A DNA stretch of 64,000 nt, taken from contig JAHBMJ010000168.1 in NCBI GenBank assembly GCA_018398765.1, forward strand, positions 62,001-126,000, in the 5' to 3' direction. The DNA comes from Chromera velia. Lineage: Eukaryota. A program made the position numbers and the translations under genes. The notes below the pieces were generated by a model, which did no database searches, had not been told where the DNA came from, and saw only the letters and a program-made list of their open reading frames with translations. Of the stretch, positions 2,046 through 59,895 are shown piece after piece; the stretch's first letter is position 1, and every line of letters starts with the position of its first letter.

Positions 2046-2854
2046 GGTTCCCTCACAGGTTTCTCAGCACCTTTGCAAGGAAGGCTGGGCAGACTCTTTC
2101 TGTCTTCGCAAGATAAGAGGGAGACGGCAATTCAACGAGGCAGCCCTATCACAAGTCCGTATCCAGGCTGGTACACGAAGCGCGGTCGAAACAGCAAGTC
2201 TGTTCAATTCTGAGAGATCTAGTCAAGTGAACGTCGCAATTACTAGAGGGCAAAGCATATGACAGTGCGTGGATCAAAGTTGTGACTTAGTTGTCAAAGA
2301 GGCTTTCGGCTCTTCGAGGATGAAGTGCATGCCTGTGAAAGTGATCGAATGATCGAGTCTTTTTTTTGGGCTCTGTACGTAGTGCAGGTTTGCAGCTTTG
2401 GGCCCGGAAAGCTCATGCATCTGACGCAAGCAAGCTTGCGAACGGCCCCGGAAAGCAAGAAAAATTACAAGTGGTTCACGCAGTGCCACGCTATATGTAG
2501 CTGATTGAAGCCACGCAGAAAGTTGCACTCACATACAGTCAGGGCAAGACTCAGATAGAGTCAGGGTGGGGGCTAGTGGGGGCGTTACTAGGCGTTACCT
2601 GGCGTTGTCCAGACGTATGAAAGATTTGATGTGTTTTTCTTAAAAAATACGGTAGAATGAAAACTAAATTTAAGAAAATTTAAATGAATCTGTAACATAA
2701 TTAATTTTCTTATATGAACTATCCTTTATTTTTTGTATAGAAAGCCAAAAAAATGTTTTAATTCTGTTTATAATGGATCTGAAATATACAGGACTAGATC
2801 TATAAACAAATTTATCAACAAATTTTATAACTTGTTATGAAAGAAAACGATAGT

Positions 2855-3334
2855 TGCTTTGTCCCCCCTATCCGGCCACCTTATGGCGTCCAGACAGAAG
2901 GCTAGACAGAAGATAAAGCAAGGACAAAAACTTTAGGGAAGATTTGGAGAAGGAACGTGAGCAACACTCATTCAAGCAACAGTTTACAGAAGGTTTAGCT
3001 CTAGAGCAATCTAGGATCCCAATCAGCTAGGTTCATTCTATCATTGCACAATTTCTACTTATGTTTCTCTCTGTTCCTCTCTCTCAGAGTCTCAGACTCC
3101 CGATCTATGATAAACAGACATCAGACTCAAACGATGCTATCCGTTGCTCGAGTAACATGTTGTATACTTGAATACGAAGGTCAGACTCGATCGACTTCGA
3201 TCAACAACTTTGATTGACGCGCGTGAAACGTACGAAGCAAAGCGCGGCGGTGGAATATGGCGCGGCACGCTGGCTCACTCAGTCACGGCGCATGCGAAGG
3301 CTCAAAAGGCGGCGCCACAGGGTAGGACTCCACA
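2855..3334 (+). repeat. LTR copy 1 (480 bp, TG...CA)
   Basis: Begins TGCTTTGTCC and ends GGACTCCACA; aligns without gaps to 3348-3827 with 31 substitutions. Confidence 0.9.
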
Positions 3335-3347
3335 GATGGCACCATAA

Positions 3348-3827
3348 TGCTTTGTCCCCCCTGTCCGGCCACCTTATGCCGTCCAGACAGAAGGCTAGAC
3401 AGAAGGTAAAGCAAGGACAAGAACTTTAGGGAAGATTTGGAGAAGAAACGTGAGCAACACTCATTCAGGCAACAGTTTACAGAAGGTTTAGCTCTAGAGC
3501 GATCTGGGATCCCAATCAGCTGGGTTCATTCTATCATTGCACAATTTTTACGTATGTTTCTCTCTGTTCCTTTCTCTCAGAGTCTCAGACTCCCGATCTA
3601 TGACAAACAGATATCAGACTCAAACGATGCTATCCGTTGCTCGAGTAACATGTTGCATGCTTGAATACGAAGGTCAGACTTGATCGACTTTGATTAACAA
3701 CTTTAATTGATGCGAGTGAAACGTACAAAGCAAAGCACGGTAGTGGAATGTGGCGCGGCATACTGGCTTACTCAGTCACGGCGCATGCGAAGGCTCAAAG
3801 GGCGGCGCCACAGGGTAGGACTCCACA
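3348..3827 (+). repeat. LTR copy 2, the 5' LTR of the copia-like element
   Basis: TG...CA, 480 bp, immediately followed by a TGG-initiated PBS-like sequence and the gag-pol region. Confidence 0.9.
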
Positions 3828-3845
3828 TGGTCCCGTTCCTGGTCA
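3828..3845 (+). other. Putative primer-binding site (TGGTCCCGTTCC...)
   Basis: TGG (complement of tRNA CCA) directly abuts the LTR terminal CA. The cognate tRNA was not identified. Confidence 0.55.
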
Positions 3846-4700
3846 GATTCGTGGAGGGTGAATTCCGGTCCCGGCCTTTCCATTCGTCCCTTCGCCCCGA
3901 GCCAGAGAAAGGAGCGACGTGCACGCGGCGGCCCGTTTACACGGGGTGGCGGGGCGCCTGCGACAGAGGTGTACATGTTGTGAGTTCCATGGTATGGCCT
4001 GCATACACTTTAGCGTAAGAAATACACCCGAGGCACTTACCGTGGTGGTATGTGCTCTGGGCCTTCATATGAGATTTAATTAAGCCGATGGTACGGTTAT
4101 GCCATCGGAGGCTTCAGAATTAATTCCGGTCGAATTAATTTCCAGACAGTCAGACAGACGTGCACGGCGGTTACCGTCTGTCTGAATGAGAGACTTGACC
4201 TAGGGATTGATAGAGCTTCATGTGTAGGATCTGTACTGTGCCTTATGTGTCTCTGGCATAGTGGTTCTCTTATGCTCTGAGTATTGTACGAGGCCACCAG
4301 CAGGAGCCTACTGTGGACTGTGGGGGTTCATAGATTTTCTGTCTGGTGAAGAGACTGATCAGATATTTATTTCTGATTATCTGTATTGGTCTAGACGGGT
4401 ACGTTAGGTTAATGTATTCGCTGTGGTCCTCTAATAGGAGAGAGCTAGGAATTCGAGAGTATAGCAGTTTGAAGAGTCCTCTAGATAGGCTAGAGGATCG
4501 ACACGGGAGGGCCCATAGGATTCCACTGGAGCAATCTCGAGAGAGGTGAGACTCTACTTTTCACTGGCGCCGTCACTGAGGGAGTCTCCCGTTGTCATTC
4601 TGACAACATTCCCCTTGTTGTATTCCCGATTCCCTACTGCAGGTGACATACCATAGGTTCCAAAAAAGACGCTCCCCCCGGGTGCGTCGCGATCAAGGGT

Positions 4701-7489
4701 ATGAAGGCGAAGACCGTGGGCGTCTTCGGCCTCACGGACGATGCGGACATCATCGAGTGGGTACGGCAATACGCAGATGCTGTTGCCATTCTCAGTGACT
4801 CAGACGAGTGGTGCGGTGGGCTTACCCTCACCAACAGGAACAAGATGGGGGTCAACGTCAAGCACTATGTCGCAAGGACCGAGGTGGAAGTGCTGGAGAA
4901 GGTGGTGGAACGGGTGCCCCACCTCAGTTCAGAAGTCTCTGAGCAGCTCCGGATTTTCCACAGACACGTTGTGGACTGCGTCTCTTCACCCGACGCGGAG
5001 TGGATGAAGAGATATCTGCAGCGGACTGACGTCCTGAGAATGGGCAAGGCGAGGATCATGGAAATCAGGGAGCTTCTCTCATGCCGAGAGAAGGAGAGAA
5101 TCTCTGGTCCCCAGTTAAAGTCCCTAAATGAGCAGATCCTCTACCTGCAGACTCTGAGAGAACCCTCCTCCCTCTCCCTGTCTCGCCCTGTTGTGTTGTC
5201 TTTACGTGGGGAGCTCCATGGGGGAGCTCCAACAGAGACGAAAGTGAAGACGGAGGAGGAGACGGGAGCGATACCAGACACCTCCCGTCAGATGTCCGTC
5301 CCCGTGTCCAGTGAGCAGCGTCCGGCCTCTGATGAGCGGGACCGCCGTAGCAGTAGCAGTAGTAGTAGCAGTAGCAGTTCCAGTGGGGGGGTGCAGGTAG
5401 TTGGTGTGCGACCTGACACCACCCTGGCAGAGAAGAAAAGGAAGCAGTATGAGGACCTCGTGGCGCAGATATCGGGTCTGGACGCCGAACGGGGTGCTGA
5501 AAAGCTCTGAATTCTGGAGATCCAGAAGGAGGAGAATGACGTGATGAGTGGCATGCCTAAGAGGGATAACTTTCCTAAGGGGTTTGAAGGGAAGGAGGAG
5601 TACGCATCAGAGCTGGCATCCTGGGCTGAGAAAAAAGAGGTCTTCAACGCTGGGAAGGCTGACAGGGATACGCTGGTAGCGACCGTGCAAGGTCACATCG
5701 ACCAGTTGGCGTCTGATGTGTTTCTCTAAACGAGCAAGCCGACAAACTCCGCAAGGAGATAGACGTGCTGTCTCCTCCTCCCCAGGCCAAGGGCGTCCCT
5801 GGGGGTGCTGCTGAAGGCCGCCTGCCTTCGGTATTCCAGATGACCCCCCTTACGGGTGGGGGGATGTATCCTGCAGTGTTTCCCCCTGAACCTGCGATGG
5901 TGTCTGTAGGTGGGGGGGTGCGTACTTATGATGTTGGGGCTCTGGGAGCTCCTGACATCTTCTCTTTCCTGGGAGTTAGGGAGTTGAGTGGAACTCGGGG
6001 GAGGCCGAAGTGTGACCCTGAGGATCCCCTCATCGCCTACACCCTGGAGGAGATCTTGACATCGGTCCCGAGGACCTTTGTGGAGATACGTGATAAGGTC
6101 GTGGCGATGATCTTTGCACACTTTTTCAAGACGATCCAGTATTCGACTTCTGCTCTCGTCCTGGAGTACGAGAGGATTGCCTGTAAGCCCTGTAAGTTCG
6201 AGACTTACACAGAGCTGCTGGCACATCACAAGCGTCTCCTGAACTACCTGGTTGAGGAGAACATCGTTCACGAGCTTGGCGTGAAGTATAGGCTCGGGCT
6301 CCTGACGGCGCACCTGCCGAACGACCTCATAATGAGGTAGCAGGAGAGGCAGACCCCGGTGGACCTCACCAGCGAAGTGGAGATCACCAAGGAGATCCAC
6401 GCTATCGCTGCCCAGGCGGAGACCTTTAACAAGTCTCTCGGGGATGCTTGGGACCAGGGCCTGGTTAAGGGAGCTCTCGTCGAGGACTTGAAGAGAGAAT
6501 GGGAACAGAAGGCGGCAACCTTCGGTGTGAAGGACTCGGGGGGTGCCTCGCGGGGGGGCATCATTCCAAAGGTTCCTTTCATGGCGTTCGCGGAGCCTGG
6601 TGGAGTCCCGCAGAGGAAGTCCCCTTCCAAGGCAAAGGGAGGGAAACCCTCAGGAGGAAAGACCCCTGACTTTGGCGGGAAGGGCAGGGGCAACTCCGAT
6701 CGCAGGAGGCAAGGCGGTGCTGGCGGGGGTTTCGGCAAGGGGGATGGTAGGAGGAGCTCCAATCGGGGGCGCTCTTCTGGGTCTAATTCCTCTGCTCCCT
6801 CCAGTCAATACAATGACAAGGGGGTGGAAGGAAAGGACCGTCCTCCCACTCAGGCCGTTGTCAACCCCAGGGGCCCCAACAGGAACCCCGTTCTCGATCG
6901 ATATGGTGTCCGACACCGGGATGGAACCGGATCGGATACGTTCATCGGAACTGTTACCATGGCGGGTTCTGGAGAAACTCCCATCAAACCCGGTCAGTGG
7001 GATAGAGAGTTTAGGTCTTTGTGGAACAAAGCGTGTTGGGATCCTGCCAGCAGGAAGAGCCTTCCCCATAGGTACCGCGATGGGCAGTGCCTGAGATGCA
7101 ACGGTCCGGACGGACATACAGAGTGGGGGGGCCATGGGGCCTGTCCTTGGATTCGGAAGAAGGATGGCTGCCCAGCGTATAAAACGATGGGCTATGCTCC
7201 CAACAACTGCCCTGATGAGAATGCGAAGAAGCGATAGATGATAAAGCAGATGGACAAGACCGGGCAGGACAAGGGCGGCTCCGGGGGCCGTCGCAAAGGT
7301 CCTCCGGGAGGAGGAGGCCATGGAGGCGGCTCCGGAGACCGTCGAGGGTCTTCCTATCCTGGTCGTGGGGGCGGCTCAGGGGGGAGAGGAGGCAGTGGGG
7401 GTCACAGCCATGGTGGGCGCACCCTTTCTCCTGGCAGGTTCAACAACGAGAACTTCGAGAAGAAGAACTTAGACTCCGGACAGGCGTAG
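4701..7489 (+). pseudogene. Gag-like region with a Zn-knuckle-like motif
   Basis: ORF fragments 4701-5729 and 5765-7489 are each collinear in one frame across stops. CLRCNGPDGH...C near 7088-7145 and a Gly/Arg-rich nucleocapsid-like segment. Confidence 0.6.
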
Positions 7490-8254
7490 CGGGGGGGTAC
7501 TGTCCCTCTTGTGTCCTCGCAGACTGTCGGTCCTGGGGGTCAGGACGACGATGATGGTGTCGTAGTGACGGGTGGCGTCTCATGTGGGAAGGAAGACTCG
7601 TTCAACCTGACCACCCACATGTCCAAGGGTGAGGAGAAGATCCCTCATGGGGAGGGGTCTCTCGGAAAGCTCTGCTTTGCAGACCAGCTTGGCCTCCCTT
7701 TGTGCTATGAGCCTAGAGCCAAGTACTCGCCCGACTACGACACAATGACCTTCCCTGTGTGGCATGATGGGGCTATGGAGCGCCTGTCTGCTTAAGATCC
7801 TGTTGGGACCCACACGGGGGTCGATGTATGGAGAGAAGGAGTCTGTGGAGCCTGGTAAACGCTCTTGTCTGATGAGCCTGAACGGACAGGCTTGGAATGA
7901 ATGGGGTGGGCTATCTTCCCTGCAGGTTTGGAGACTTGTATGACGGTTATGCAAGCCTTTCAGTCGGAGTTCACTGCGAGAGGAGTCCAGCGTATCAGGA
8001 ACATGATGGAGGAGCAAGACCCCCATCTCCTTGAGGTCATCTCTCGCATGTGGGGACCGGAGGACGAGACCACCATGGGTGCGGTGCCCTCTGGTTCGAA
8101 GTCTGCTGTCTACACGGTCTCCCAGTATGAGAGTGAACTGATGAACGACCCGAGCAGGACCCGGCATCGGGCTGGGTTTCCAGAAAAGTTTGAGGTCTAC
8201 AAGCTTTTGGGAAATGCGAGATCCCAGATCCCCAAGCTCGTCGAGTACAGGGCC

Positions 8255-8680
8255 TTTAAGGTCTATATTAACTCCTGTACGTTCGGGAACCTCATCTCTT
8301 AGAGGAAGGTGAGGAGCCTTATCCGTACCTTTGGGGGGCTAGATATCCCGGACTGGACGGGTTTGTTCACGGGGGGCGTTGGGGAGGAGGGTGACGGGCC
8401 CTTAGACGGGGGGCTTCCCAGGAGGACGCGGCACCAGCACTATGAGCATCTTATCACGGGACAAGATTTCATTGAGTGGAAGGTGCAGTTGGAGATGCCC
8501 CTCCAGTCATGGGGACTGGGGGATGAAGCGGTGTTCTTTTGTTCTACGGTTTTTAGCATCCGGTTCGGGACTCATGACCCCTCCGGCGCTCCCAAGAACA
8601 TTGTCATCCCATGCCTCCTCCACACGGTCGATCAGCCGAACCTCCCTGACGTGCTGATTCATAATGCTCCTGGTGCAGGT
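8255..8680 (+). pseudogene. Retroviral-type aspartic protease domain (degenerate)
   Basis: [14 protein letters not shown] resembles VLIDSGASxNFIS, with the catalytic D reading N (GAC>AAC). The downstream PDVLI resembles the protease C-terminal motif. Confidence 0.45.
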
Positions 8681-9420
8681 CTCTTCGTTCCTCGTTCTTC
8701 GCCGAAGGATGTCCTCCCTGCCTACCATGTGTGGGCGGAGAGAACGAAGGAGGAGAAGCAGATCTCACATGGGGTGAGGCTATCTATGGACCTGATATAC
8801 TAGGAGGGGATGCGACAAGGAATTCCGCAGGTTGATGTTGAGGTCATGGACACCCCCTTCAAGGTGGGGGCACCGGAGACCTGCATCATCCACAAGCCCT
8901 GGGGAGACAGACCGGACGGATACGGCCTCAACCACCTCCCTCAAGCAGTGTATGACCGCAGCCCGCACTACAAGGCCGTTCCGAACGAGTCTTTTGAGCA
9001 CTCCCTTGGGGGAGGTCCCCAAGGCGGTTCATGCGGGTACCGGTTCCAGTCACTGCAGGAGGTGCAAGACCGGTGGAACAAGGCGCAGCAGCTGAAGTAG
9101 CAGGGAAATTCCCACGAGAGGATTCCCTGAACCCCTCTCCCTGATGCGGAGAAGAAAAGGTCGGCCAAGAAGGATTTCAGAGCCTCACCCGATGGCATTG
9201 AGGTCTCTGTGGCTGCCTACCCGATCACGTATTGGGTCGTGGGTCGATGGACTGCTTCGGAGCTGGCGGACACGGACTACTGTCAGCAAGGTCCCTTTCT
9301 CGCTATGAGAAAGTTTGATGCTGGGGGCGCTGCCCTGGGGGCGCTGCCCACTTCAAACCATGGGACTACGGGTACGAACGGACGTACCTGGCTGCCTTCT
9401 CGGCCGTCTTGGTCGACCAG

Positions 9421-10149
9421 AAGCGGGAGCCGATGGCACTACACGAGGGTTACGGACATCAGAACTTCGACGATCTCAAGGAGACTCTCGCGGCTAAGGG
9501 TAATGAGATCGATGAGGACTGCAGAAGGTAGGTTTCTACGTGTCCCCTCTGTCAACTGAAGAATGCGATCACTCCGAGGATCCACAAAAGGAGTAAGCAG
9601 TTATCAGCAGATTGGAGGCCGATCAAGGGAACGGTCTGGATCGTCGATATCTGGTTCTTCAAGGACCTTTTTGCGAAGGCCGAGACAGGGGGCTTTGGAA
9701 TGATGGTGGTTCTCTACAAGCCAGGAGCCGGGTTCTCTCTGACCCACCCAGCTAAGGAGAAAGATGAGGCTTCCCTCATCGACTGCGTGCATTACTTTGC
9801 TTGCTGGCTGGGGTGTCCGCACCTAGTGTACATGGACAGAGAGAAAGCGGGAGTGGGTGCTTCCTTCCAGGCGTGGCTCCGGGGGGACGGGTCCCCCGGA
9901 CTGCACCCCATCGAGTACCGCCAGGGACCGCCGTACGTGGGTAAGGGTCTGCAGGCTCTGGTCGAGCGCTGCATTCGCAGCAATTGGGAGGGAGTGGCCC
10001 TCCTCATGTCGGACCTGAACCACCGTTTTTCCTTTGCTGTGATTCACCTCGTGGCGATCGATGGGGGAATGTTGGGGGTATTCCTGTGCGTTTTACAGAA
10101 CGGTGGGGGGCATCCCTTTTATCCTGACCTTTCGAAGAACGCCTCCTAG
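9421..10149 (+). pseudogene. Integrase (HHCC zinc finger plus DDE core)
   Basis: LHEGYGH...CPLC, then WIVDIW, VYMDRE and ALVERCIR in one frame, with a TAG at 9529. Confidence 0.85.
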
Positions 10150-12684
10150 ATGGAGAATGGATGGAGTTGCACAGAGTCATTGTGCAGTTCTTGGCTTTGC
10201 TCACGTATGATGTTGTCGTGGTCCTCCACAGGCACAAGGAGAAAAACGTTCAAGGGGAACGTTTTACCGTCCTGCAGGTCCACCCGGAACATCTATAGAC
10301 GGTCCCAGACAACCTCCTGGACAACCTCCACCTCTGGGGGGGGGCCTCGTTTCGATCAGGAAGGAACCATCCTCTTGGCTCCGGCGGGTAGAGAATAGGA
10401 GGATCCTCGACTATGGAAAACTTCTGCAAGGCAGGAGGGGGGAACAGGTGCCCGCTACCGCAGATGGGCAGGGAGAAGCGACCTTGGTCACAGAGGATTC
10501 TCTCTAGTCCTTCCGGGCACATCTCCGGTAGGATGATACGGGGGGTTGCAGCGAGGGACACAGTGGCCGGCAAGGAAATTTTCTTTCCAGCTGGCTGATG
10601 AGGGCGAAGGTATCGTAGGCTTACGGGAAGCCCCTCGCCTCACTCACCTTCGTGAGGGCCATCAGGAGATTACGAGCACGGAGGCGTAGGCGTCGGCTTT
10701 GTCATTGTCTTCCTCTGCCCTCCCCTCTGCTCTGCCTCCCTCCCTCCCACCCCCTGCTCCTGCAGAGCCCTCCGAACCCTCTCCTGCTCAAGCCGAGGCC
10801 TTGGTAAGGGAAGCGGGGGCGGCGGGCGCCCGACCATGGTTTTCCTCTCCTGTTGTGTCCAACAGGGCTTCCGTCGACTCCGGGGAGTCGCCGCTGCCAG
10901 ATTTCTTTGTCCCGCTCGGCTCCTCGATGAAGGGGACCATTCTAGACCCGTCAGGCCCTGGGGTGCTGCGCACGCCTGGCACGGTGCGGCAGCACACTCG
11001 TACTCCTTCGCGGGGAAGGAGGGTGAAGGATCCAGGCCCCGTCTTTTTCGACAAGAAGGGGAAACGTCTCCTGGGGGCCAACGGGGAGCCCCTGGGGTAC
11101 AATTGGAAAGTGGAGCGGCCGGTGTTCATGACGTACCACCGGGGGATGTATGACGCTTAGACTCGTCGTTTCGCGTTCATGCTCTACCCTAACTTGGGGG
11201 AGATCACTTAGGGAGAGGACCTGGACACCCTCAAGAACTACTTGGCTCCCCGACTGACGATGAGAGTCAAGGGGGACTCATGGAGAAGCGGGAGTGCAAC
11301 AAGGACGCAAGACGAAATCCAGAAAGCACGTGGGGTGTTCCCTGGAGACATGGGTTTCGATCTTAAGGAGAATAGCCTCAAAAAGATCATGTCACAGAAC
11401 CAGGGCGTCTACCTGCACTCGCCTCCACAGTCCCGTCGGATTGAGATCCTAGAGGGGTGGACCACTTCGATGAGTCTCCGAGTCTCCATTGCTCCCGCTG
11501 CGGCTGGAGGCAAGCGTAGGGGGCGATACTACATGCACAGGGCGCTCAAGTACTTGGACAGGCCCAAGCAGGAGTGGATCGAGGCAGACAAGGAATTGAG
11601 GGAGACAGACGGTCTGTCTCAGATTGAGCCTCCGGGAGCTGAGTATGCCTACTGGACCCCTCTGGAGGGGAAGTTCCGGACAGTCGGGCTGTCCATGGCT
11701 GTCGGCTTTCCCGAGAGGTACTACGGGTACAAGCGGATCGAGTTCCAGAACTATGTTCTTCCAAGCTCCTACGACCCGGATCTGGTGGCTGCAAGCATCC
11801 GGGCATACACGGAAGGAGGAGATCGGATGATAGAACACTTTTGGGACGTGTTCCAGGGGACAGAAAGCAACGAAAATGAAAAGGCGTGGTGCCTTATATA
11901 TGAGATGTGCTACCAGGTCAGGTACACGTTCCACAGGTCAAAGCACCACGATGACCGCTCGCGCCCCATCGTGTTCGAGAGAGAAGACCCCACGGTTGAG
12001 GTCGTCCCTCCCAAGGATCCCAGAGACAGGGTCGACAAGAACGAGGTCGGCCGCAGGGACTGAGCTTGGGAGGAGCTCTCAGATGCGTCAGTGGCAAAGA
12101 CAGGCAGAGAGAAAAGGGGAGGGGAAGGGTCTCCTCGCGCTCATTTGTCGGGTGCAGAGGATGAGGAGACTGAGGAAGACACCTTCGCTTCTGAGTCTCT
12201 GCTGTAAGGCAGATCGAGCGGGTCAGACAGAGACGATGGAGATGACGGGGGGAATCCTTCTGATGGAGATGGAGGTCACGGGGACCCTTCCCCAGACGAT
12301 TCTCCATATGACCCACCTCCAGGGGGTTATTCTGGAGGAGACTGGGGCGGGGGAACAGATGATGATGGAGGCGGAGATGGCGGGGGGGACGTTCCTCCCA
12401 GATCTTCCCAAGCTCTACATCATGGCCTCTCCGTTGGGAAGAAAGCCCGCCTCCGTCTATCTGCTCGCAGACGACCACGGAGATCGTCTGGGAGAAGGAT
12501 CTTCTCCGAGGATGACGGAGACGACGAAAGAGGGGCAGAGTCAGACTCTTCGGCCGAGAGGGGTAGAGGTGACGAGTCAGAACCGAAGGATAGGCCGATT
12601 GACCCTTCTGCGCACCCAGGGGGCGCAGATAGGTCCCGGTCCAACCAAGGAACTCCCATCCGAGAGAGGAGAGTTTTGGGTTAA

Positions 12685-12867
<183 letters not shown>

Positions 12868-48554: not shown

Positions 48555-50650
48555 ATGGATGGTCCTTCTCCTCTGATCTGAAAAAAACAAAGAGTCGGAG
48601 AAAGGAGTGGAGGTCCCATGTATCTGATTCATTTCACTCGATCACTCGATGAATCCTCTTTTTTCCTTCCTTCAGCATGTAAGCATCATGGGCACAGGCA
48701 AGGCGTGTTTTCTCTTTTCCCTCCCGTCCGGACTCACTCGATTGATTGACGTCAGAGAGAGAAGAGCTAGGGGGAGGGGGCAGGATAGAGAAAGATACGA
48801 TGCCAAAAAGACAACGTGATGAGAGAAGGGGAGAGAAAGAGCTCCTTCCTTCCTGGCTGCCTGAGTTCTGCATTATCGAGAGAGGGAAAGAGGGAAGGAG
48901 GGAGGCGAACTCACTCCCTCACTCACCCACTCACTCACTCAGATGTTTGTGCGTCAACAACCGAAAGAGAAGAGGAAAGAAGGATTTGGAAGGAGAAGAT
49001 CTCTTTTTCGTCCCTCTAGTTCTGTATAGATTCCATCCTTCCATCCAACAATGATTTGCATCTCCCTTCTTTTCTCCATTCCCAGGGAGGTTTTCTTGTC
49101 CTCGTCCTGCTCCCTCCTCCCTCACCTCCACCTTCCATCTATCCCCGTGTCTTCCTTTTTCTGACATCATAAAGCTAGATGGTCCTTCTTCCCTGGGTGA
49201 AGTCAAACAAAGAGTCAGAGAAAGGATTAAGCAGAGGGCCCATGCATCAATTTCATTCCTCTTATTTGACAGACGTTCTCTTTTGCTGCATGGGCACATG
49301 CTCTTGTCATCTCCTTCTCTCATTCTCCCTCCCTGTTCGGGCGTTGACCTAAAGCAGGCAGGTCTGTTGCTCTCCTCTCCTCTCCCGTCTTGTTTTTTCT
49401 CTTCCCTCCCGTCCGGACTCGCTCAATTGATTGATGTCAGAGAAGAGAGAGAAGAGCTAGGGGGAGGGGGCAGGATAGAGAAAGAAACGATGCCAAAAAG
49501 ACAACATGATGAGAGAAGTGCGTGGGAGGGAAAGAAACGAACAACAAAAAAAGAAATAAGCAAACAAAGAAACAAAGAAGGATCAAAATAACACCATACA
49601 TGCAAAAACTAGAGACGACCAGAAAGATCAAGACACAATGAACACATGAAGAGAGTAAAAATATGCAAATGCCCACCAGACTGAAGCACAACGGAACTAC
49701 TCGCTTATCTCTCCTTATCGCTTCTCACTTCAGACTGAGCCGCCTTCTCGCTTCTGCCTCTCTCCTCTAAACTACTTTATCGTCTCTAAAGAGAGACGCT
49801 TGCAGGGAGTGATTGGTGGGGCCGAAGTTAGAATTTTCGGATGCCTCTCTGGGCATAGATTCCGGTTAAGAAGGCGTAGAGGGCTCTACAGAGATGCTTT
49901 GGTAGTGAATTTACAGCTGGGATGCACGATTCCTCTCTTTTTCTCTCTCTGTCTCTCTCTCTCACATACACATACAAACACACACGGGGAGGGGGGAGGG
50001 GGCAACAATGACATCTACAGGGATTGGGGGGAGTGAATGTTCAAAGAAACCCCCCTTCTTCCTGCCTGGCTATCTGAGTGCTACATTGTCGAGGGATGGA
50101 AGGAGGGAAAGAGGCGAACTCACTCCCTCACTCACCCAGTCACCCACGCATTCGTGCGTCAACAACCAAAAGAGAAGAGAAGAGAAAAGAAGAGAAAAGA
50201 AGAAGAAAAAGGGATTTGGAAGGAGACGTTTATTTTTCTTTCCTCTAGTTCTATAGGGATTTCATCTTTCTATCCAACAATGATTTGCATCTCCCTTCCT
50301 TTCTCCATTCCCAGGGAGGTTTTCTTGTCATCATCCTGCTCCCTCCTCCCTCCCTCCATCTTTCATCTATCCCCGTGTCTTCCTTTTTCTGACATCATAA
50401 AGCTAGATGATCCTTCTCATCTGATTGAAGTCAAACAAAGAGTCGGAGAAAGGAGCGGAGGTCCCATGTATCTGATTCATTCCACTCGATTACTCGATGA
50501 ATCCTCTTTCTCTAAAGAGAGACGCTTGCAGGGAGTGATTGGTGGGGGTCAGAATTTCCGGTTGCCTCTCTGGGCTTAGATTCCGGTTAGGAAGGGATAG
50601 AGAGCTCTACAAAGATGTTTTGGTGGTGAATTCACAGCTGGGATGTACGG

Positions 50651-50660
<10 letters not shown>
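48555..50660. repeat. Degenerate modular duplications
   Basis: 48720-48828 matches 49405-49518; 48845-49260 matches 50055-50505; 49783-49935 matches 50508-50655; 48555-48660 matches 50407-50508. Confidence 0.8.
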
Positions 50661-50697
<37 letters not shown>

Positions 50698-53010: not shown

Positions 53011-54994
53011 AGCATGTCTGCGTAGCTATGGAGAGTGATTGCGTGTATGCAGCATTGTTTGCGTAACGTGACTGAAAGACGGCTTTGATGCTTGATAGCT
53101 AAGCTAGTAGCTTTATATATGGATGGGTACTTGAAAAGTTTGATGATACACCGATTCACATGTCATGCATTGTGCGTATATATGTGCATGCAGGTAGACT
53201 GTTGCTTCAGAGGGCAGCTTTGCTGCACCGTGAGGATCGAAGAGGCTTTTGTATTACACAACACGTATATGCAACATGCAGCCATGAAGGTCGGTTGTTC
53301 GTTCAATCAAGGCAGGCATGCCTCCAGTTCGTCCCTCCAAAAGGCACGCAGCATGCAGAGGGCTGTTGCATACATATGCACCCGCATCTGCTTTTTGCGT
53401 ACACAATTATTATTCCTCCCCTCTGAGTAGTCCGAAGCGTCATCGTCTCCACTTTCTTCCTCCTCTTCTGAGTAGTCCGAGGCGTCATCGTTGTCAACCC
53501 TGTGTACCTCAGCAGGCTGCACGGTAAACTCAATTATCGTTAGGTTTCCGTCATCATCAATGGTGTACTCAAAAGCCATCACTTGCAAGATCAGCTGGAG
53601 GAGCTGGGGATGGGCGGTTACAAGTTCATTATATTGGTTTTGGAGGTTTTCATCCACCATGACCAGTCAAAGAGTCCTGTTGGCGGCAGCTTTCGGTTTG
53701 GGTTTGGTAACTTTGCGTGTTATGTTGTGCATGCATGCAGATACCAAACACTGAAAAGGATGACCGATAGTATATGCTTATAATCGTTTCACTTTTTTAA
53801 ACACTGCGTGCTTCGTGTCGGTTTATGGTTTTTGTTCGCATTCAATTCCCCCCCTCTCCCTTTGTCTTTCAGACAATGAAAAACCAATAGCCTCGTTCTG
53901 TGTAGGAAGGTTTTATACCTACAGTTGAACCATTGTGGACCCGCTCTCTTGGTCCTAGTACCTCTTGATCTTTCGTCCATTTCGTGCCATCTAGTGCTAC
54001 TTCACCCCTACCACCCTGAAGGGCGGAGGTACCATCGTAGTCTACGGCAGACTGACGCTACTTGGACTGCTGTAGAAAGTGATGGTTTTCAGAATCGAAC
54101 CCACGACCTTTCGGTTGTGAGCTGATCTGGCATTTTTAATACAAAAGTGTTTGAACGTAACATTTTAAACATTATTAATGATTTTATATATCATATAACT
54201 TACTTACTACTTATATAGCCCCATTAGTAGAACTCGATAGTTAGTAAACAATATAGGAATAGAGTTAGGATTAATGTTTAGAAGACTTGCCTCCTGTTTC
54301 AATACTCTAACGTATGGCTTTTAAAAAAGTACTAGAACGTTTAAAACCTTCCTGACCAGCCCGTGCAGCGCGATTAGTATGTCAACTGTTACAGTTTTTC
54401 AAAAGAATATGTCGTCTTGTCTAGCGTCTTATAACAAATGCATCAAATTATGAGAATATATGTATTTAACGTTTTATAAGACACATTATATTAGAATTAT
54501 GTAATTGAATTTTTGTGTAAAACACGAGATAATTAAACTATTGTTGATTGACTGGTGCTAAACCCTAACATTGATAATAATTGTTACTTTCTTTTTATAA
54601 TTTACAGGTTAATAATATTTTTTAAGTGAGTCAGCAATCAGTCATATGAGAAAGGAATGTGTGATTCATAAGGAATACAATTATGAAACTATGAGCCCGA
54701 GTCCAATATAACGTCACACCATCGTATGAATATTGAAGGCAAGTCATTAGTACACCAGCCAACGGCGCATGAGCGCGCAAATACCAGTAATTGCAGCAAC
54801 GCTCTAATAGCCCCGGAAAGCGAAGCGTAGGGCACTCAAAAAAACACTCCGCTAGCTGATTTTGTCGGAAAGATAGGCCAGAAATACGAAATAAGGGGCA
54901 TTAAAGCACTTACAAATGAAGAGAAGAAATTAAAGCTTTCCGGGGCGGTTTGCACGCTTGCGTACGTATGTCAAGTCGGTTCGGAGAACACTAA

Positions 54995-55130
54995 CAATTG
55001 GGAGATTACCTCACATGGCAGCAGTGTACCAGCAATTGGGGGGTTATAACTCATATGGCAGCCGTGTACCATGGTTAACTCACATGGCAGCAGTGTACTA
55101 GCAATTACGGGATTAATTCACATGGCAGCA
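54995..55130. repeat. Tandem repeat x4 with core TCACATGGCAGCAGTGTAC
   Basis: Direct reading; unit length about 30-40 bp. Confidence 0.85.
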
Positions 55131-55546
55131 GCGAGCGACCGAATCAGAAGTAACTGCACGCCAGCGCGACTCCCATTATATGCAGTCAAGATGGTTATAA
55201 CGAGACCTAAGTTGGCCAGACCGTATCGCAGCATGGCTCGAGACAACCAGTGACTTTGCAATGAGCGAAACGTCTCACTTTTTTTAAACCATTCCGGCCA
55301 TAAAGGAATAAGTCGATTGTCATCCACCTCCGCAACACCACCATTAGTTTGCAAGGCTGCTGCCCAGCTGCTCATCATGCTCAGCGACGGTGCACAGGCC
55401 TCCATCTTCCTTTGCCTGCTGAGCGACTCTCAAGGTTCGTACCCTTAGTTGTAACACAGAAGCCGTCTTTTTGGTTCGTTCCCGTCTCCCACACCTGTTG
55501 TTCCCTCCATGATGCGCAGTGTACCTTTTTGACTTTCCCGTGTCTC

Positions 55547-55763
55547 CGTGTTCACTTTGCGGCTGCAGATTGGCATGAACACAAGCGACGAGCACACGGT
55601 TGAGTCTGTCGATCTCACCGATCTCACATTGCGGCTGCAGATCGGCATAAATACGAGAGACGAGCACACTGTTGAGTCTGTCAATCTCACCGTGTTCACT
55701 TTATGGCTGCAGATTGGCACAAACACGAGCGACGAGTACCCGGTTGAGTCTATTGATCTCACC
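55547..55763. repeat. 72-bp tandem repeat x3
   Basis: GGCTGCAGAT...GACGAG...GTTGAGTCT...ATCTCACCG three times; a 24-aa repeat within ORF 55445-56008 (-). Confidence 0.85.
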
Positions 55764-56029
55764 GCTCGCCGGCCGGCTTCTGTGACGTACACCTCGTCGT
55801 CATCGCTTGAAGCAAAGGAACGACTCGTGCTCTTTGCGTGGTTGTGGTCACTCTCCAAAGACAAAGAGAACTCCAGCAAGTCTGTCCTTTCTACAAATCT
55901 CAAGACGCTGATCGACCACAGATGGCAGATTACAGAGGCTGCAGAAGGTCGTAGAGTCGTTCGAACACCATGTGGCGCCGGCGAAGCGTCGCGGCGCTTT
56001 CGAAGCACATGTAAAACATGGGGCCGGTG

Positions 56030-56711
56030 ACGATGTTCAGGAGGTCCACGTACTCAAAGCGTAGGTCTTCGTCCACGGTAAGGTTCAGGTGGAATTCGGG
56101 GGATGCCGGTCCAGTCCGCGCGAGCCACAGGAGCGATACGAAGGTCCCGACCCGGAGGTGCACGGGCCGGCAGAAGTAGTGGCCAAATGCGTAGGACAGC
56201 TTTCTGTGGTCGGTTTTGTCGAGGATCACCACGGTTTTATCGAGGTCACCAAGCCCAGGAACGCGACGCACGCGTCGAGCAGCACGCGCACAATTTCCTC
56301 CTCCGCGTCCGCCTGCTGTCCGCCGCCAGCGTCGTTCGTGGCTACGTAGCACTCCGTGGCAAACTGGCAGAATGATAGGAAGCCGGCCAGTAGCAGTGGA
56401 GTCGATGGGTAACGGGGTGTCGTCGTGAGCAGGGACTCCAGTTCGGCGCGTTGCTGGTCGATGGTGGGGCGCGCGGCAACCCATTTACAGAGGGCCAGAA
56501 AAGTCGTCTCGTCGAGATGGCGCTGCAGAAGTTTGACAAGGAAGATGCCTTGCGAGTACGAAAACTCCGGCGCCAGAATATCGCACGGCTCAAAATCTTG
56601 AGCTATGGTGCTGCTCACCGGTCCGGCGGAGGCCCGTCGGCGACGGCAGAACCCGCGCACGCACAGGGTGGCCGCCGCATAGCTGCCCAGGATGGTGGAA
56701 AAGAGGATCAT
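56030..56711 (-). pseudogene. Intronless viral-like hypothetical gene, frameshifted
   Basis: ORF 56711-56226 continues in another frame (DKTDHRKLSYAFGHYF...). A short imperfect duplication, GGTTTTRTCGAGG(A)TCACC at 56212-56250, marks the shift. Confidence 0.5.
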
Positions 56712-56790
56712 CTTCTCGGCTTTTGTTTGTACTCCCGGCGTGTTGTTCGTTTTAAGTTTTTTAGTAGCACCAAATCGGCCTTGGGGTTAT

Positions 56791-56819
56791 CCCCTTAGAA
56801 AACAAAGTTTCCTAAGGGG
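56791..56819 (-). terminator. 13-bp hairpin downstream of the 222-aa gene
   Basis: Minus-strand CCCCTTAGGAAAC-TTT-GTTTTCTAAGGGG, with one G.U pair, 45 nt past the stop codon. Confidence 0.6.
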
Positions 56820-56863
56820 GGCTTTCTTACGGCTTTTCTTTTGTGCGCGTGGCGCGAGGGCGG

Positions 56864-57532
56864 TTAGTTCCCTTTTTCCTCCTCCGCTGCATATGTGGCG
56901 GCCGCCGGCGGTTTCTTCTGCTCCACTTGCTGCATCAGGCTGTTGAGGACTTCTGGCCGCACGTACTTGTTCATCAGTTCCTTTCGGAACTTGCGCATAT
57001 CCTGCACGCTCTCCGGCAGCGTCTGACCATCCGGTTTGTGGACGAAAATGCGTACATACCGAAAGACGCGCTCGTAGTCCGCCTTCTCCTCAGCTGTTCC
57101 ATTCAGTGCGACGCCTTCCTCAGCCAGCGCCTCGAGCATCACCAGATGCTTGAAGATGCAGTCGACGCACCGCTTCTGCCGGTTGTTTAGGTGGTCTTCG
57201 AGAAGAACGAACTGCTTGATGATCTCGTGGAGGTTGAAGCGGGTCTCCATGACCGGCAGCAGCTCCGGTGTCACAACGTTCTGCGCCGCGTCCCGGTAGT
57301 AGTCGTCGTTGGCACCACGCATGTTCGCCGGGAGGGACGGCGCCGGCAGATAGTACAGGTGGACGAGGACGCCCAGCGCAAGCAAGAGCAGAAGGGAGGG
57401 AAACGCCACGCGGCGGAGGAAAGACCAGTCGCCCGAGGGGCCCTGGCACCCACCTTCTTCAAGCGAACAGCTGTCATCGTCGGCATCTGCGCCGCACGTG
57501 TACCGTGCGGGAGAACGAACCATGAAACTCAT
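56864..57532 (-). CDS. 222-aa membrane-anchored CxxC protein, giant-virus-like hypothetical
   Basis: One TM segment, then LLPVMETRFNLHEIIKQFVLLEDHL...KRCVDCIFKHL...EALAEEG, which I recall (unsearched) from conserved NCLDV hypothetical proteins. Intronless, with an A-rich leader. Confidence 0.7.
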   Translation of the reverse strand: MSFMVRSPARYTCGADADDDSCSLEEGGCQGPSGDWSFLRRVAFPSLLLLLALGVLVHLYYLPAPSLPANMRGANDDYYRDAAQNVVTPELLPVMETRFNLHEIIKQFVLLEDHLNNRQKRCVDCIFKHLVMLEALAEEGVALNGTAEEKADYERVFRYVRIFVHKPDGQTLPESVQDMRKFRKELMNKYVRPEVLNSLMQQVEQKKPPAAATYAAEEEKGN

Positions 57533-57589
57533 TGGTTTTTTTCTATTTTCTTACTCCTTGCTGCGGCTGCCGCCCGCTCTTTATTGTTG

Positions 57590-59107
57590 TTAGTAGAGCA
57601 TGCCGTCGGGGGTCAAAACAAGCCCGAAAAAAGTCGCTAGTGCCACCATCAATAGCGTGTATACAACACTGCTAAACACCTTAACGCCCATCATCGAGGC
57701 GGTAAGTGTTACCAACGAAGCGACGATTATCCCTACAGCAGCTCGTAGCGTAAGGTTTCCTACCATGCGCATGCTCTGCTGGACCTGTGTACAAATTAAG
57801 TGTGACTGTTGGGCCGGGAGGGGTTTCTTGACAGCCAGCGTGGCTGCCATAATACTAATCAGGGCTTGTACCAGTCTCAGGAGCAACACGTTGATGAGGT
57901 CACGAGGAGACATGCTTGAAAGCGCACCATACAGCTCGCTGCCGTACCTGGTGACCCAACGGATGAGTTTGCTGATGAGCGTAAAGAGCTGCACAGCGGG
58001 AATCGCCAAGAACTTCAGCAGCGACAGTGTTATTCCGAAGAAGCGGAAGATGTGCACCATCCAGCGAAACGGGGTGGATGTGGTAACAACGCGGATAAAC
58101 CAGTCGATGCCGAGATACTTTATGACCCGTTTATGGACGCTCGCAAGCGACTCGCTGGCAATCTCCTTCAGGTTGCTGAACAACGCCGTCATGAAGATAG
58201 CCAATCCTCCATACTTGAAAAGGAACCCCCCGATGATGGGGATCTGACCGACGGCAAACAGACTTCCTACGAGAAAAACCACGGGGAAGAGGGCCTTTAG
58301 CATAGGCGGAAAGAGGTTCAACAATCGCCGGAAGAGCGCTCCTGAGACTCCGGTGCCACTCATCAGGGACGCTAGCCGGTACATCATCACCAGCGGGTAG
58401 ACCGTAACGGTGTTGCCGTATTTCCGTATGACGATTTTTCTTTCTGCCTCGACGGCCTCGCCCATGAGCTGCCAGTAGTAGGGCGACGGTGCGTTCGCGT
58501 GGTCTTTCAAATACTGCAGCCGCACCTTCTGAAAGATCCTCTTGGCTTGCCGTTCCTCGATAAATCCCGAGAAGGACGCCGACTTACGTTCCCTGCGTTC
58601 CGCGCTCAGGTGCCCAACCTTCGGGTCGTCTGTGAATTTGGCGAAGAGGTCCGCCAGCAGCAGGCGATCCTTGGCCGGAATGGGTTCTCCCTTCGGCCGC
58701 GCACAGTCGGCGGCCTCCATGAGTTTTTGTACCAGAGCCTCCGCTTTGGCGGTCCCGCTCGATCTTGTGCTGCGGAAGGAGGCGCTGCCAGACTTGGACC
58801 ACGAGGGGGCGCTGCAGAACGCATCCTCGCCTACGCTGTGGGCGCTGCGGAACGTCTTTTTAGTGGACGAAGACGATACTCTACGGGCGCACACGCCGTC
58901 CTTGCACTCATATTTTGCAGAACTTTTCCGTTTTTTTAATGACAACAAGGGGGCCTCGGCCCTTTTCTTGCTGCTTGTGGTAGGCGCCACCGTCTTCTTC
59001 CTGTTGTTACCGATGGGCGCCACTGCCGCGGCCAACCCCTGCAGTGGCTTCTTTTTGCTGTGTCGTGTGGCTTTATTCTTTGTTTGACTGCTGGTGGTCC
59101 TCCACAA
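57590..59107 (-). CDS. 505-aa hypothetical protein with a basic N-terminus and multi-TM C-terminal half
   Basis: Long uninterrupted non-repetitive ORF ending 57 nt from the next gene. The called start is TTG, so the true start is uncertain. Confidence 0.7.
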   Translation of the reverse strand: MWRTTSSQTKNKATRHSKKKPLQGLAAAVAPIGNNRKKTVAPTTSSKKRAEAPLLSLKKRKSSAKYECKDGVCARRVSSSSTKKTFRSAHSVGEDAFCSAPSWSKSGSASFRSTRSSGTAKAEALVQKLMEAADCARPKGEPIPAKDRLLLADLFAKFTDDPKVGHLSAERRERKSASFSGFIEERQAKRIFQKVRLQYLKDHANAPSPYYWQLMGEAVEAERKIVIRKYGNTVTVYPLVMMYRLASLMSGTGVSGALFRRLLNLFPPMLKALFPVVFLVGSLFAVGQIPIIGGFLFKYGGLAIFMTALFSNLKEIASESLASVHKRVIKYLGIDWFIRVVTTSTPFRWMVHIFRFFGITLSLLKFLAIPAVQLFTLISKLIRWVTRYGSELYGALSSMSPRDLINVLLLRLVQALISIMAATLAVKKPLPAQQSHLICTQVQQSMRMVGNLTLRAAVGIIVASLVTLTASMMGVKVFSSVVYTLLMVALATFFGLVLTPDGMLY

Positions 59108-59352
59108 TGTTTTTCTTCTTTAGTGCCTGGCTTGCGAGTACGGTGTATAAAGTTTCTGCATAAGTTTTTACTATTATATACGTAGGTGTTTTTTGGTGGC
59201 AGGCAGGGGTGTGCATGCGCATTAATTTGTCAGGTCCGTAAACTACCTTAAACGAATTTATTAAGGTGTTTCCTAAGGGGGCTCCCCTGGCACCATCCTT
59301 AGCTGCATAACACCGCTTTTTTTTGTGCACTGCCCAAGGAAGATTAACTCAT

Positions 59353-59895
59353 TTACGTGGATTTTTTGTTGCAGTCCCCTCCACCGGCAGCAGCTGCGGC
59401 GGCGGCGGCGGCAACGGGCGGGTCATCGGACCCGTCGGTGGTGGGCACACTTCGGGTCAGGAGGTCGAAGTACAAGGTGTTTTCCAAGCTGGCGTGCGCC
59501 ACTTTTGGCCACGCCTCCTGTACGTCTTTCAGCCTGATTGATTTAGTGCCACTGACGAAAGGCTTCCAGAAGTTTTTGACCAGAATGTCCAGCAGCCCCG
59601 GCACGTTTGTCGTTTCTGCCATGAGCAACGCAAGGACCTCTTTAGTGAGGCGCCGGAAATGGACGCATCTTTTCCCCTGCACTGCATAGCTTGGTGTCGG
59701 TGCGAAGTCGGTCCCCAACAAGAAATGGCTCAAAAGCTGCCGGCCGGCGTCGGAAAGTCCGATCTGGAGCCGCTCTTTCAGTCCGAGCAGTTTCTCCCAC
59801 ACGGTCACCAGGTGGTTATTCTGCAGATGTTGGTCGACAAAGGCCGGCGTCACCAACACCTGTAGCAGTTGTGTGAGGAAGTTTTCGAACTGTTC
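59353..59895 (-). CDS. 5'-truncated hypothetical gene at the island edge
   Basis: Open frame with no ATG near its start; the sequence changes to host-like composition near 59900. Confidence 0.55.
   Translation of the reverse strand, partial: EQFENFLTQLLQVLVTPAFVDQHLQNNHLVTVWEKLLGLKERLQIGLSDAGRQLLSHFLLGTDFAPTPSYAVQGKRCVHFRRLTKEVLALLMAETTNVPGLLDILVKNFWKPFVSGTKSIRLKDVQEAWPKVAHASLENTLYFDLLTRSVPTTDGSDDPPVAAAAAAAAAGGGDCNKKST

What the first reader, a model, noticed from the sequence alone, without database searches (positions are those of the whole stretch)
2855..3827. RIP-like C>T/G>A hypermutation between twin LTRs
Seen: my manual alignment of the two 480-bp LTRs gives 31 substitutions and no indels, of which 28 are transitions. 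Taking C/G as ancestral, the contexts are 11 CpA/TpG, 10 CpG (including two CG>TA doubles), 5 CpT and 2 CpC. At the 5' sites I checked, the solo LTR at 31971 mostly keeps the C/G allele, supporting that direction. Known: fungal repeat-induced point mutation gives CpA>TpA, and 5mC deamination gives C>T. Inference: this non-fungal-looking eukaryote may have a repeat-directed mutator or dense non-CG methylation.
Basis: partly seen in the sequence, partly recalled or inferred. Interest (0 to 1): 0.85.

Follow-up and report, generated by a model that had tools for sequence, protein, structure and literature searches.

The report
Cytosine hypermutation in an algal retrotransposon
Copies of a retrotransposon in the alga Chromera velia lose cytosines to thymine about eleven times faster than the reverse, strongest at CG and CA, which likely reflects unreported transposon-enriched DNA methylation rather than fungal-type repeat-induced point mutation.

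Summary
Observation confirmed and extended; the RIP label is not supported. The two 480-bp LTRs differ by 31 substitutions, 28 of them transitions, with no indels. They belong to a Copia family of Chromera velia. They lie head to tail 13 bp apart and do not flank an element. Polarised against 65 proteins of other copies, C>T/G>A runs at 46.1 per 1000 site-copies, against 4.1 for T>C/A>G and 1.1-2.3 for each transversion class. The rate follows the 3' base: CpG 91.5, CpA 63.4, CpT 35.2, CpC 25.7. It is strand-symmetric, nearly Poisson across copies, equal in CHG and CHH, and has no APOBEC, AID or UV motif. That fits steady deamination of CG- plus CH-methylated cytosine better than burst-like CpA-specific RIP. 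Repeat specificity is only indirectly supported: non-LTR duplicates are less biased (75:25 against 63:8, p=0.03) and introns are 49% GC against a predicted 12%. One survey lists only four DNMT2 genes for Chromera, so the enzyme is unknown. No methylome, mutator gene or single-copy mutation spectrum could be tested.

The parts
2855..3334 (+). LTR copy A (TG...CA, 480 bp); carries the A/T allele at 12 of the 28 transitions (10 G>A-type, 2 C>T-type; 1 in CpG context)
   Evidence: family LTR ends at 2855 and 3827 seen as loose ends with varied flanks
2839..2854 (+). Purine-rich tract before A, possibly a polypurine-tract remnant (inferred); no target-site duplication around A
   Evidence: sequence; a similar string occurs in an X2 contig joint (table 5c)
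3335..3347 (+). 13-bp spacer between the two LTRs (head-to-tail junction)
3348..3827 (+). LTR copy B, 5' LTR of the Copia element; carries the A/T allele at 16 of the 28 transitions (9 in CpG context)
3681..3769 (+). Mutation cluster in B: 12 of its 16 A/T alleles in 89 bp, on both strands, including both CG>TA doubles
   Evidence: simulation p=0.00025; window size chosen after seeing the data
3828..3850 (+). PBS-like sequence (TGG directly after the LTR end; not matched to a Chromera tRNA)
4647..7237 (+). Broken gag-like reading frames (label inferred from position; no Pfam hit); 38 relatives, all named Chromera velia
9532..10149 (+). Integrase-like fragment, by eye only (no Pfam or PDB hit)
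13683..14908 (+). Ty1/Copia reverse transcriptase, broken by stops and cut off near 14,910; no 3' LTR follows
   Evidence: RVT_2 E=4e-5, below the curated cut-off; 27 Chromera relatives, many named Ty1/copia RT
31971..32451 (-). Solo LTR C of the same family with a 4-bp target-site duplication; used as outgroup
45575..46018 (+). Old, more AT-rich LTR relative D beside an AT-rich patch

Best explanation
Inserted copies of this Chromera velia Copia family accumulate C>T changes on both strands at a steady, context-graded rate (CG > CA > CT > CC), likely because their cytosines are methylated in CG and also CH contexts and the 5-methylcytosine deaminates to thymine over many cell divisions. Shown: the direction, size, context order, strand symmetry and near-Poisson spread among copies, and that the two LTRs in the finding are a typical sample of this process. 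Inferred: that the changes arise after insertion in chromosomal double-stranded DNA. Inferred more weakly: that the non-CG part is enriched on transposons relative to host single-copy DNA. Untested: that 5mC is present, and which enzyme writes it (a diverged DNMT2 paralogue or a methyltransferase missed by surveys are the candidates). The likely effect is gradual inactivation and AT decay of old copies.
For: (65 proteins, 764 of 1133 codon columns kept, 606 classified changes): C>T 483/10476 = 46.1 per 1000, T>C 46/11242 = 4.1, transversion classes 1.1-2.3. By 3' base: CpG 91.5, CpA 63.4, CpT 35.2, CpC 25.7 (site-bootstrap intervals 77-106, 51-76, 28-43, 21-31); by 5' base 39.5-54.2. The order holds separately in gag and RT, and reciprocal amino-acid pairs give 46.7 against 4.1, so selection does not make the asymmetry. 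Hit-site counts are close to independent recurrence. The window element's own derived residues are 37 clean C>T-type of 47. These rates predict 10.4 CpG, 8.4 CpA, 4.9 CpT, 2.4 CpC and 1.9 T>C for the 28 LTR transitions; observed 10, 11, 5, 2. Two DNA runs each show 169 transitions among 190 variable places over 2700-4100. CHG 36.5 equals CHH 34.9, as in the related dinoflagellate Symbiodinium, which has broad CG methylation and transposon-enriched CH methylation with no CHG/CHH difference (PMC5890265 passages). Non-LTR duplicates are less biased (75:25 against 63:8, p=0.03). Introns are 48-49% GC against an equilibrium of about 12%. A genome-wide version with GC-biased fixation predicts TpA o/e 1.24 against 0.34-0.36 observed.
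Against: No 5mC data were seen. A published table lists no DNMT1, DNMT3, DNMT4 or DNMT5 for Chromera, only four DNMT2 (PMC12344493 supplementary table 1); that table also has zeros for Phaeodactylum where PMC9998398 reports DNMT3/5/6, so it can miss genes. No methyltransferase was found in 16 ORF fragments of the element. The only single-copy differences available were also transition-rich (6 of 7, unpolarised, mostly exonic). The non-LTR duplicates are short, indel-rich and still about 3:1. A CG-only simulation also fails to give the intron TpA depletion (0.95), so that test is incomplete. A and B are individually uneven (strand p=0.023, CpG share p=0.016; cluster in B), which a purely steady process does not predict. 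Deep branches to C and D show much weaker polarity (C-derived 9 C/G>T/A against 10 reverse), though the outgroup there is itself decayed.
Confidence: 0.5

Rival explanations
1. Chromera has a genome-wide C>T mutation bias (for example poor repair of deaminated cytosine), and GC-rich young transposons merely display it while host DNA is held near 49% GC by GC-biased fixation.
For: 6 of 7 single-copy differences in run X5 are transitions. Non-LTR duplicates are still 75:25. Introns show CpG o/e 0.70-0.77 with CpA/TpG excess. The relative Plasmodium falciparum has a genome-wide G:C>A:T bias (PMC5389722 passages). No canonical DNA methyltransferase is listed.
Against: It needs a fixation bias of about B=2, and then predicts intron TpA o/e 1.24 and CpA/TpG 0.99 against 0.34-0.36 and 1.23-1.28 observed. 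Non-LTR duplicates fall below the Copia expectation (47:15, P=0.007 for the largest group). Plasmodium has Ts:Tv 1.13, a 4.79 ratio and no detected neighbour effect on 24 events, against a 7.5 ratio and a 3.6-fold context gradient here.
Confidence: 0.27
2. A dedicated repeat-directed mutator, convergent with fungal RIP or the mitotic Dim2 mutator of Zymoseptoria, enzymatically converts C to T in repeated DNA.
For: C>T makes up 483 of 606 classified changes, CpA is the top non-CG context, and both strands are hit. B has a dense two-strand cluster and A a G>A strand skew. AT-rich, TpA-richer patches lie beside transposon relics.
Against: CpG exceeds CpA, whereas the Zymoseptoria mutator hits CA and not CG (PMC8016269 passages). 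There is no strand heterogeneity or strong overdispersion among copies. RIP indices are not met. Linked local duplicates are less biased, though they may be too short to trigger pairing. DNMT4/RID is listed as absent.
Confidence: 0.15
3. The changes are made during retrotransposition, by RT error or an APOBEC/AID-like deaminase acting on cDNA.
For: G>A is slightly above C>T (49.2 against 41.9 per 1000); A carries 10 G>A-type to 2 C>T-type alleles.
Against: Both strands are hit almost equally. There is no 5' motif (YC 45.5 against RC 46.8; WRC 35.3 against 48.4), and no hypermutated single copies.
Confidence: 0.05
4. The pattern is a sequencing, assembly or circular-polarisation artefact.
For: Assuming C/G ancestry makes any transition look like C>T. 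Gene models in transposons are noisy (106 ambiguous and 52 multi-step differences were dropped).
Against: Polarity comes from copy majorities and an outgroup. Two independent DNA runs give the same spectrum and match the window exactly in the covered parts of 5 kb of single-copy DNA.
Confidence: 0.03

Closest known systems
Symbiodinium CG plus transposon-enriched CH methylation (PMC5890265, passages seen)
   Same: Related alveolate; CG above CH; no CHG/CHH difference; CH enriched on transposons; no Dnmt1 or Dnmt3 among its ordinary genes.
   Different: That is a measured methylome with Dnmt5/Dnmt6 and transposon-borne DNMTs and about 1% mCH. Here only a mutation footprint is seen, CH mutation is 28-69% of the CG rate, and only DNMT2 is listed.
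Dim2-dependent mitotic C>T mutator of Zymoseptoria tritici (PMC8016269, passages seen)
   Same: C>T excess in transposon copies, with CpA as a major target and accumulation over mitotic divisions.
   Different: It mutates CA and not CG; here CG is highest and CT and CC are also raised; no DIM2 is listed for Chromera.
Fungal RIP (Neurospora CpA; Pucciniomycotina TpCpG) (PMC2621366 abstract start; PMC3318451 and PMC12543289 passages)
   Same: C:G>T:A transitions dominate in repeated DNA on both strands.
   Different: No narrow target; RIP indices not met; no burst or strand heterogeneity; no RID listed; a premeiotic pairing trigger was not tested.
Genome-wide G:C>A:T bias of Plasmodium falciparum (PMC5389722, passages seen)
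   Same: Related lineage with a C>T-driven AT bias.
   Different: Ts:Tv 1.13, no detected context effect and a genome at its AT equilibrium; Chromera host DNA is about 49% GC.

Membership tests
Fungal RIP | Directional C:G>T:A excess in repeats | tested here: met
   46.1 against 4.1 per 1000
Fungal RIP | CpA (or another narrow di/trinucleotide) as dominant target | tested here: not met
   CpG 91.5 > CpA 63.4 > CpT 35.2 > CpC 25.7; TpCpG 93.5 is like other NpCpG, 75.9-103.6
Fungal RIP | Burst-like, uneven, strand-skewed mutation among copies (feature recalled) | tested here: not met
   Strand heterogeneity p=0.60, overdispersion p=0.06; A and B alone are uneven
Fungal RIP | TpA gain and CpA/TpG loss (RIP indices; thresholds recalled) | tested here: not met
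   LTRs A, B and Copia body: TpA/ApT 0.67-0.82, substrate index 1.15-1.25
Fungal RIP | Triggered by duplication itself, sparing unique DNA | tested here: inconclusive
   Short linked duplicates less biased; no polarised single-copy set
Fungal RIP | RID/DNMT4 gene and premeiotic timing | not testable with these tools
   No genome held; published table lists 0 DNMT4
5mC-deamination decay of transposons | C>T highest at CpG, symmetric on both strands, clock-like | tested here: met
5mC-deamination decay of transposons | 5mC present on the elements | not testable with these tools
   No methylome found
5mC-deamination decay of transposons | A DNA cytosine methyltransferase encoded by host or element | tested here: inconclusive
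   None in 16 element fragments; host listed with four DNMT2 only; host proteome could not be searched
Plant-type CMT methylation | CHG above CHH | tested here: not met
   36.5 against 34.9
APOBEC/AID editing of retroelements | One-strand G>A with a 5' motif (feature recalled) | tested here: not met
Ty1/Copia LTR retrotransposon | Copia-type RT, TG...CA LTRs, PBS, integrase before RT | tested here: met
   RT; LTR ends; PBS and integrase by eye only

The most novel reading that the evidence does not exclude
Chromera velia, a close photosynthetic relative of apicomplexans with no known DNMT1/3/4/5, has evolved its own transposon-targeted cytosine modification or mutator system, possibly run by one of its four DNMT2 paralogues acting on DNA or by an unrecognised enzyme, that erodes repeats in all cytosine contexts: a convergent, non-fungal counterpart of RIP/Dim2 genome defence.
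Probability: 0.3. Interest if true: 0.85.

Novelty: new variant of a known kind. Interest (0 to 1): 0.6.

Why it matters
It predicts an undescribed cytosine methylome or mutator in the free-living sister lineage of apicomplexans, in a genome where one survey finds only DNMT2. That makes two open questions directly testable in a culturable alga: whether a DNMT2-family enzyme can mark DNA on transposons, and whether repeat-directed mutation exists outside fungi. If the bias is genome-wide instead, it is an unusually strong context-graded mutation spectrum that bears on AT drift in the apicomplexan lineage. LTR-based dating in this genome would need correction either way.

Tried and rejected
No whole genome was held, so no DNA-level family tabulation or enzyme search was possible. 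An exact 29-nt LTR motif found 0 loci in metagenome contigs. Single-copy control: runs X1 and X2 had no differences over 36400-41420, X4 gave no cover, and X5 gave only 7 differences plus one insertion; too few and unpolarised. No listed run is on record as RNA, so expression of the element was not assessed. Cluster look-up of 10 proteins found 7, with clusters of 1-2 members and no strain variants. A second repeat family was sought with ORF 57593-59119; only 1 hit, Chromera's own model. A methyltransferase or deaminase cargo between integrase and RT was sought: Pfam on 16 fragments gave 2 weak unrelated hits, the Atlas only sub-0.9 hits, and a single-sequence fold of pLDDT 33 was unusable, so no fold search was run; the full HMMER library search could not be run, which leaves a remote cargo domain open. 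No tRNA genes in the window to match the PBS. Earlier scan findings: none. Rejected: UV, AID, APOBEC and CHG signatures; LTRs flanking one element. Relic D was too diverged for clean polarisation (25 C/G>T/A, 13 reverse, 30 transversions).

Full report
Observation. Copies A (2855-3334) and B (3348-3827) align without gaps and differ at 31 of 480 sites. 28 are transitions, with contexts 11 CpA, 10 CpG, 5 CpT and 2 CpC if C/G is ancestral. Solo LTR C (31971-32451, minus strand, 4-bp target duplication) has the C/G allele at 19 sites, the A/T allele at 5 and is uninformative at 4 (p=0.007). On the pair alone the context split is not significant against site counts (p=0.096), and assuming C/G ancestry is circular, so wider data were needed.

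What the sequence is. B is followed by a PBS-like TGG and about 11 kb of broken reading frames ending in a Copia RT (RVT_2, E=4e-5, below the curated cut-off). The element is cut near 14,910 and no LTR follows. All 27 RT relatives and all 38 gag-region relatives are named Chromera velia CCMP2878, and two of five window ORFs tested are exactly in the collection. The host is therefore C. velia, whose genome holds about 30 Mb of transposons, 3.7 Mb of it Copia (PMC4501334 passages and supplement row). A and B are head-to-tail neighbours 13 bp apart; A has no target-site duplication. They share several alleles that differ from most family contigs (for example 2932, 2946, 3064, 3251), so they are close kin. 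At least one A/B difference (2975) segregates at about 55% among contigs laid there, so being born identical is not shown. Other LTR-LTR joints exist in the runs.

Family-wide DNA evidence. Contigs of four runs were laid on 2700-4100. X1 shows C>T 60, G>A 53, T>C 32, A>G 24 and 21 transversion places; X2 also has 169 transitions of 190. Only 40 of 226 rows were printed. Six of the 28 A/B transition sites were among them: five favour C/G (2928, 3307, 3446, 3681, and 3572 on one contig) and one is split (2975).

Polarised spectrum. All 65 proteins were aligned to 3828-14908. Of 1133 codon columns, 764 had at least 6 copies, a 70% majority and a window residue equal to the majority. 606 differences could be assigned to one base change; 106 ambiguous and 52 multi-step ones were dropped. 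Rates per 1000 site-copies: C>T 46.1, T>C 4.1, C>A 1.1, C>G 2.3, T>A 1.7, T>G 2.2. By 3' base: CpG 91.5, CpA 63.4, CpT 35.2, CpC 25.7; by 5' base 39.5-54.2. An earlier, narrower run gave 108, 70, 41 and 25. Gag and RT agree, reciprocal amino-acid pairs give 46.7 against 4.1, CHG equals CHH, and AID and dipyrimidine motifs are not enriched. Numbers of sites hit (84, 55, 64, 89) are near those expected from independent recurrence (94, 58, 70, 90). Strands are similar (41.9 and 49.2), with no strand heterogeneity in 56 copies (p=0.60) and mild overdispersion in 64 (p=0.06). Limits: only amino-acid-changing sites in annotated copies are seen, stops are excluded, and the window codon stands in for the ancestral one.

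Is it repeat-specific? No direct test succeeded. X1 and X2 match the window in the covered parts of 5 kb of the P-type ATPase gene; X5 differs at 7 sites, 6 of them transitions, which leans toward a general bias but is unpolarised and mostly exonic. Non-LTR duplicates in the window give 75 transitions to 25 transversions against 63 to 8 for LTR pairs (p=0.03); they are short and indel-rich. The Copia spectrum equilibrates at about 12% GC, while introns are 48-49% GC with CpG o/e 0.70-0.77 and TpA o/e 0.34-0.36, and patches near transposon relics are 21-30% GC. A simulation with the Copia spectrum genome-wide plus a fixation bias that restores 48% GC predicts TpA o/e 1.24 and CpA/TpG 0.99, unlike introns. 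A CG-only model fits CpG and CpA/TpG better but also misses the TpA depletion (0.95). Together this is moderate support for transposon enrichment of the non-CG component, with some CpG decay in host DNA too.

Results against a purely steady process. A is G>A-skewed and nearly CpG-free, while B is CpG-rich (p=0.023 and 0.016). 12 of B's 16 A/T alleles fall within 89 bp (p=0.00025, post hoc). A local burst or a conversion tract from an older copy would explain this; neither was tested. Deep branches to C and D show weak polarity.

Mechanism. I favour deamination of cytosines methylated in CG and CH contexts on inserted copies (0.5), over a genome-wide bias (0.27), a dedicated RIP-like mutator (0.15), cDNA editing (0.05) and artefact (0.03). 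The footprint parallels the Symbiodinium methylome (PMC5890265 passages). It differs from the CA-only Dim2 mutator (PMC8016269 passages), from TpCpG hypermutation (PMC3318451 passages) and from the context-free Plasmodium bias (PMC5389722 passages). The difficulty is the enzyme: PMC12344493 states that DNMT4/RID appears confined to fungi (passage) and its table lists four DNMT2 and nothing else for Chromera. That table has zeros for Phaeodactylum that PMC9998398 contradicts, and the latter also reports DNMT4 in diatoms (passages). That DNMT2 is a tRNA methyltransferase is stated. No methyltransferase was found in the element.

Novelty. Searches returned no papers. The listings from searches showed no title or abstract on methylation or repeat mutation in Chromera. 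The library lacks most subscription papers. 11 of 23 supplements of PMC9998398 and 4 of 16 of PMC4501334 were not searched and could list Chromera enzymes. PMC12543289 was seen as passages only. The kind of process is known; its presence, strength and all-context gradient in a chromerid apparently lacking the usual enzymes seem unreported. Verdict: real, a new variant of a known kind, not a member of RIP; interest 0.6.

Noticed in passing
window 54000-60000: CpG o/e about 1.0 and higher TpA than host DNA, with closely spaced uninterrupted ORFs on the minus strand (56229-56711, 56867-57532, 57593-59119). No Pfam hit for the two tested; the only relative of the longest is Chromera's own model. 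Possibly a recent foreign or viral insertion; untested.
   Followed up: partly
window 36987-40759: Run X5 (guessed RNA) differs from the window at 7 sites plus a 4-base insertion; 4 are A>G, 3 of these nonsynonymous. A strain difference is simplest, but mRNA editing is not excluded.
   Followed up: partly
window 3827 to 2854 and 3825 to 3347 (joints): Contigs in X1 and X2 join an LTR end directly to an LTR start, so head-to-tail LTR junctions recur in this family.
   Followed up: no
window 3681-3769: Dense two-strand C>T cluster in LTR B; local burst or conversion tract.
   Followed up: partly
window 2620-2838: The AT-rich flank (21% GC) is itself a high-depth repeat over the part laid (2700-2840); other copies continue differently after 2838.
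   Followed up: no
window 10150-13680: About 3.5 kb between the integrase-like fragment and RT holds ORFs without a known family; long for a Copia element.
   Followed up: partly
window 37402-44460: P-type ATPase (SERCA-like by eye) gene; three GT-AG introns confirmed by an X5 contig; intron TpA o/e is only about 0.35.
   Followed up: partly
window 48558-50684: Rearranged local duplications of 100-430 bp, 80-91% identical, in host-like non-coding DNA.
   Followed up: partly
window 47215-48153 and 1526-1978: A chromodomain-containing ORF (+) and a prefoldin subunit ORF (-).
   Followed up: no
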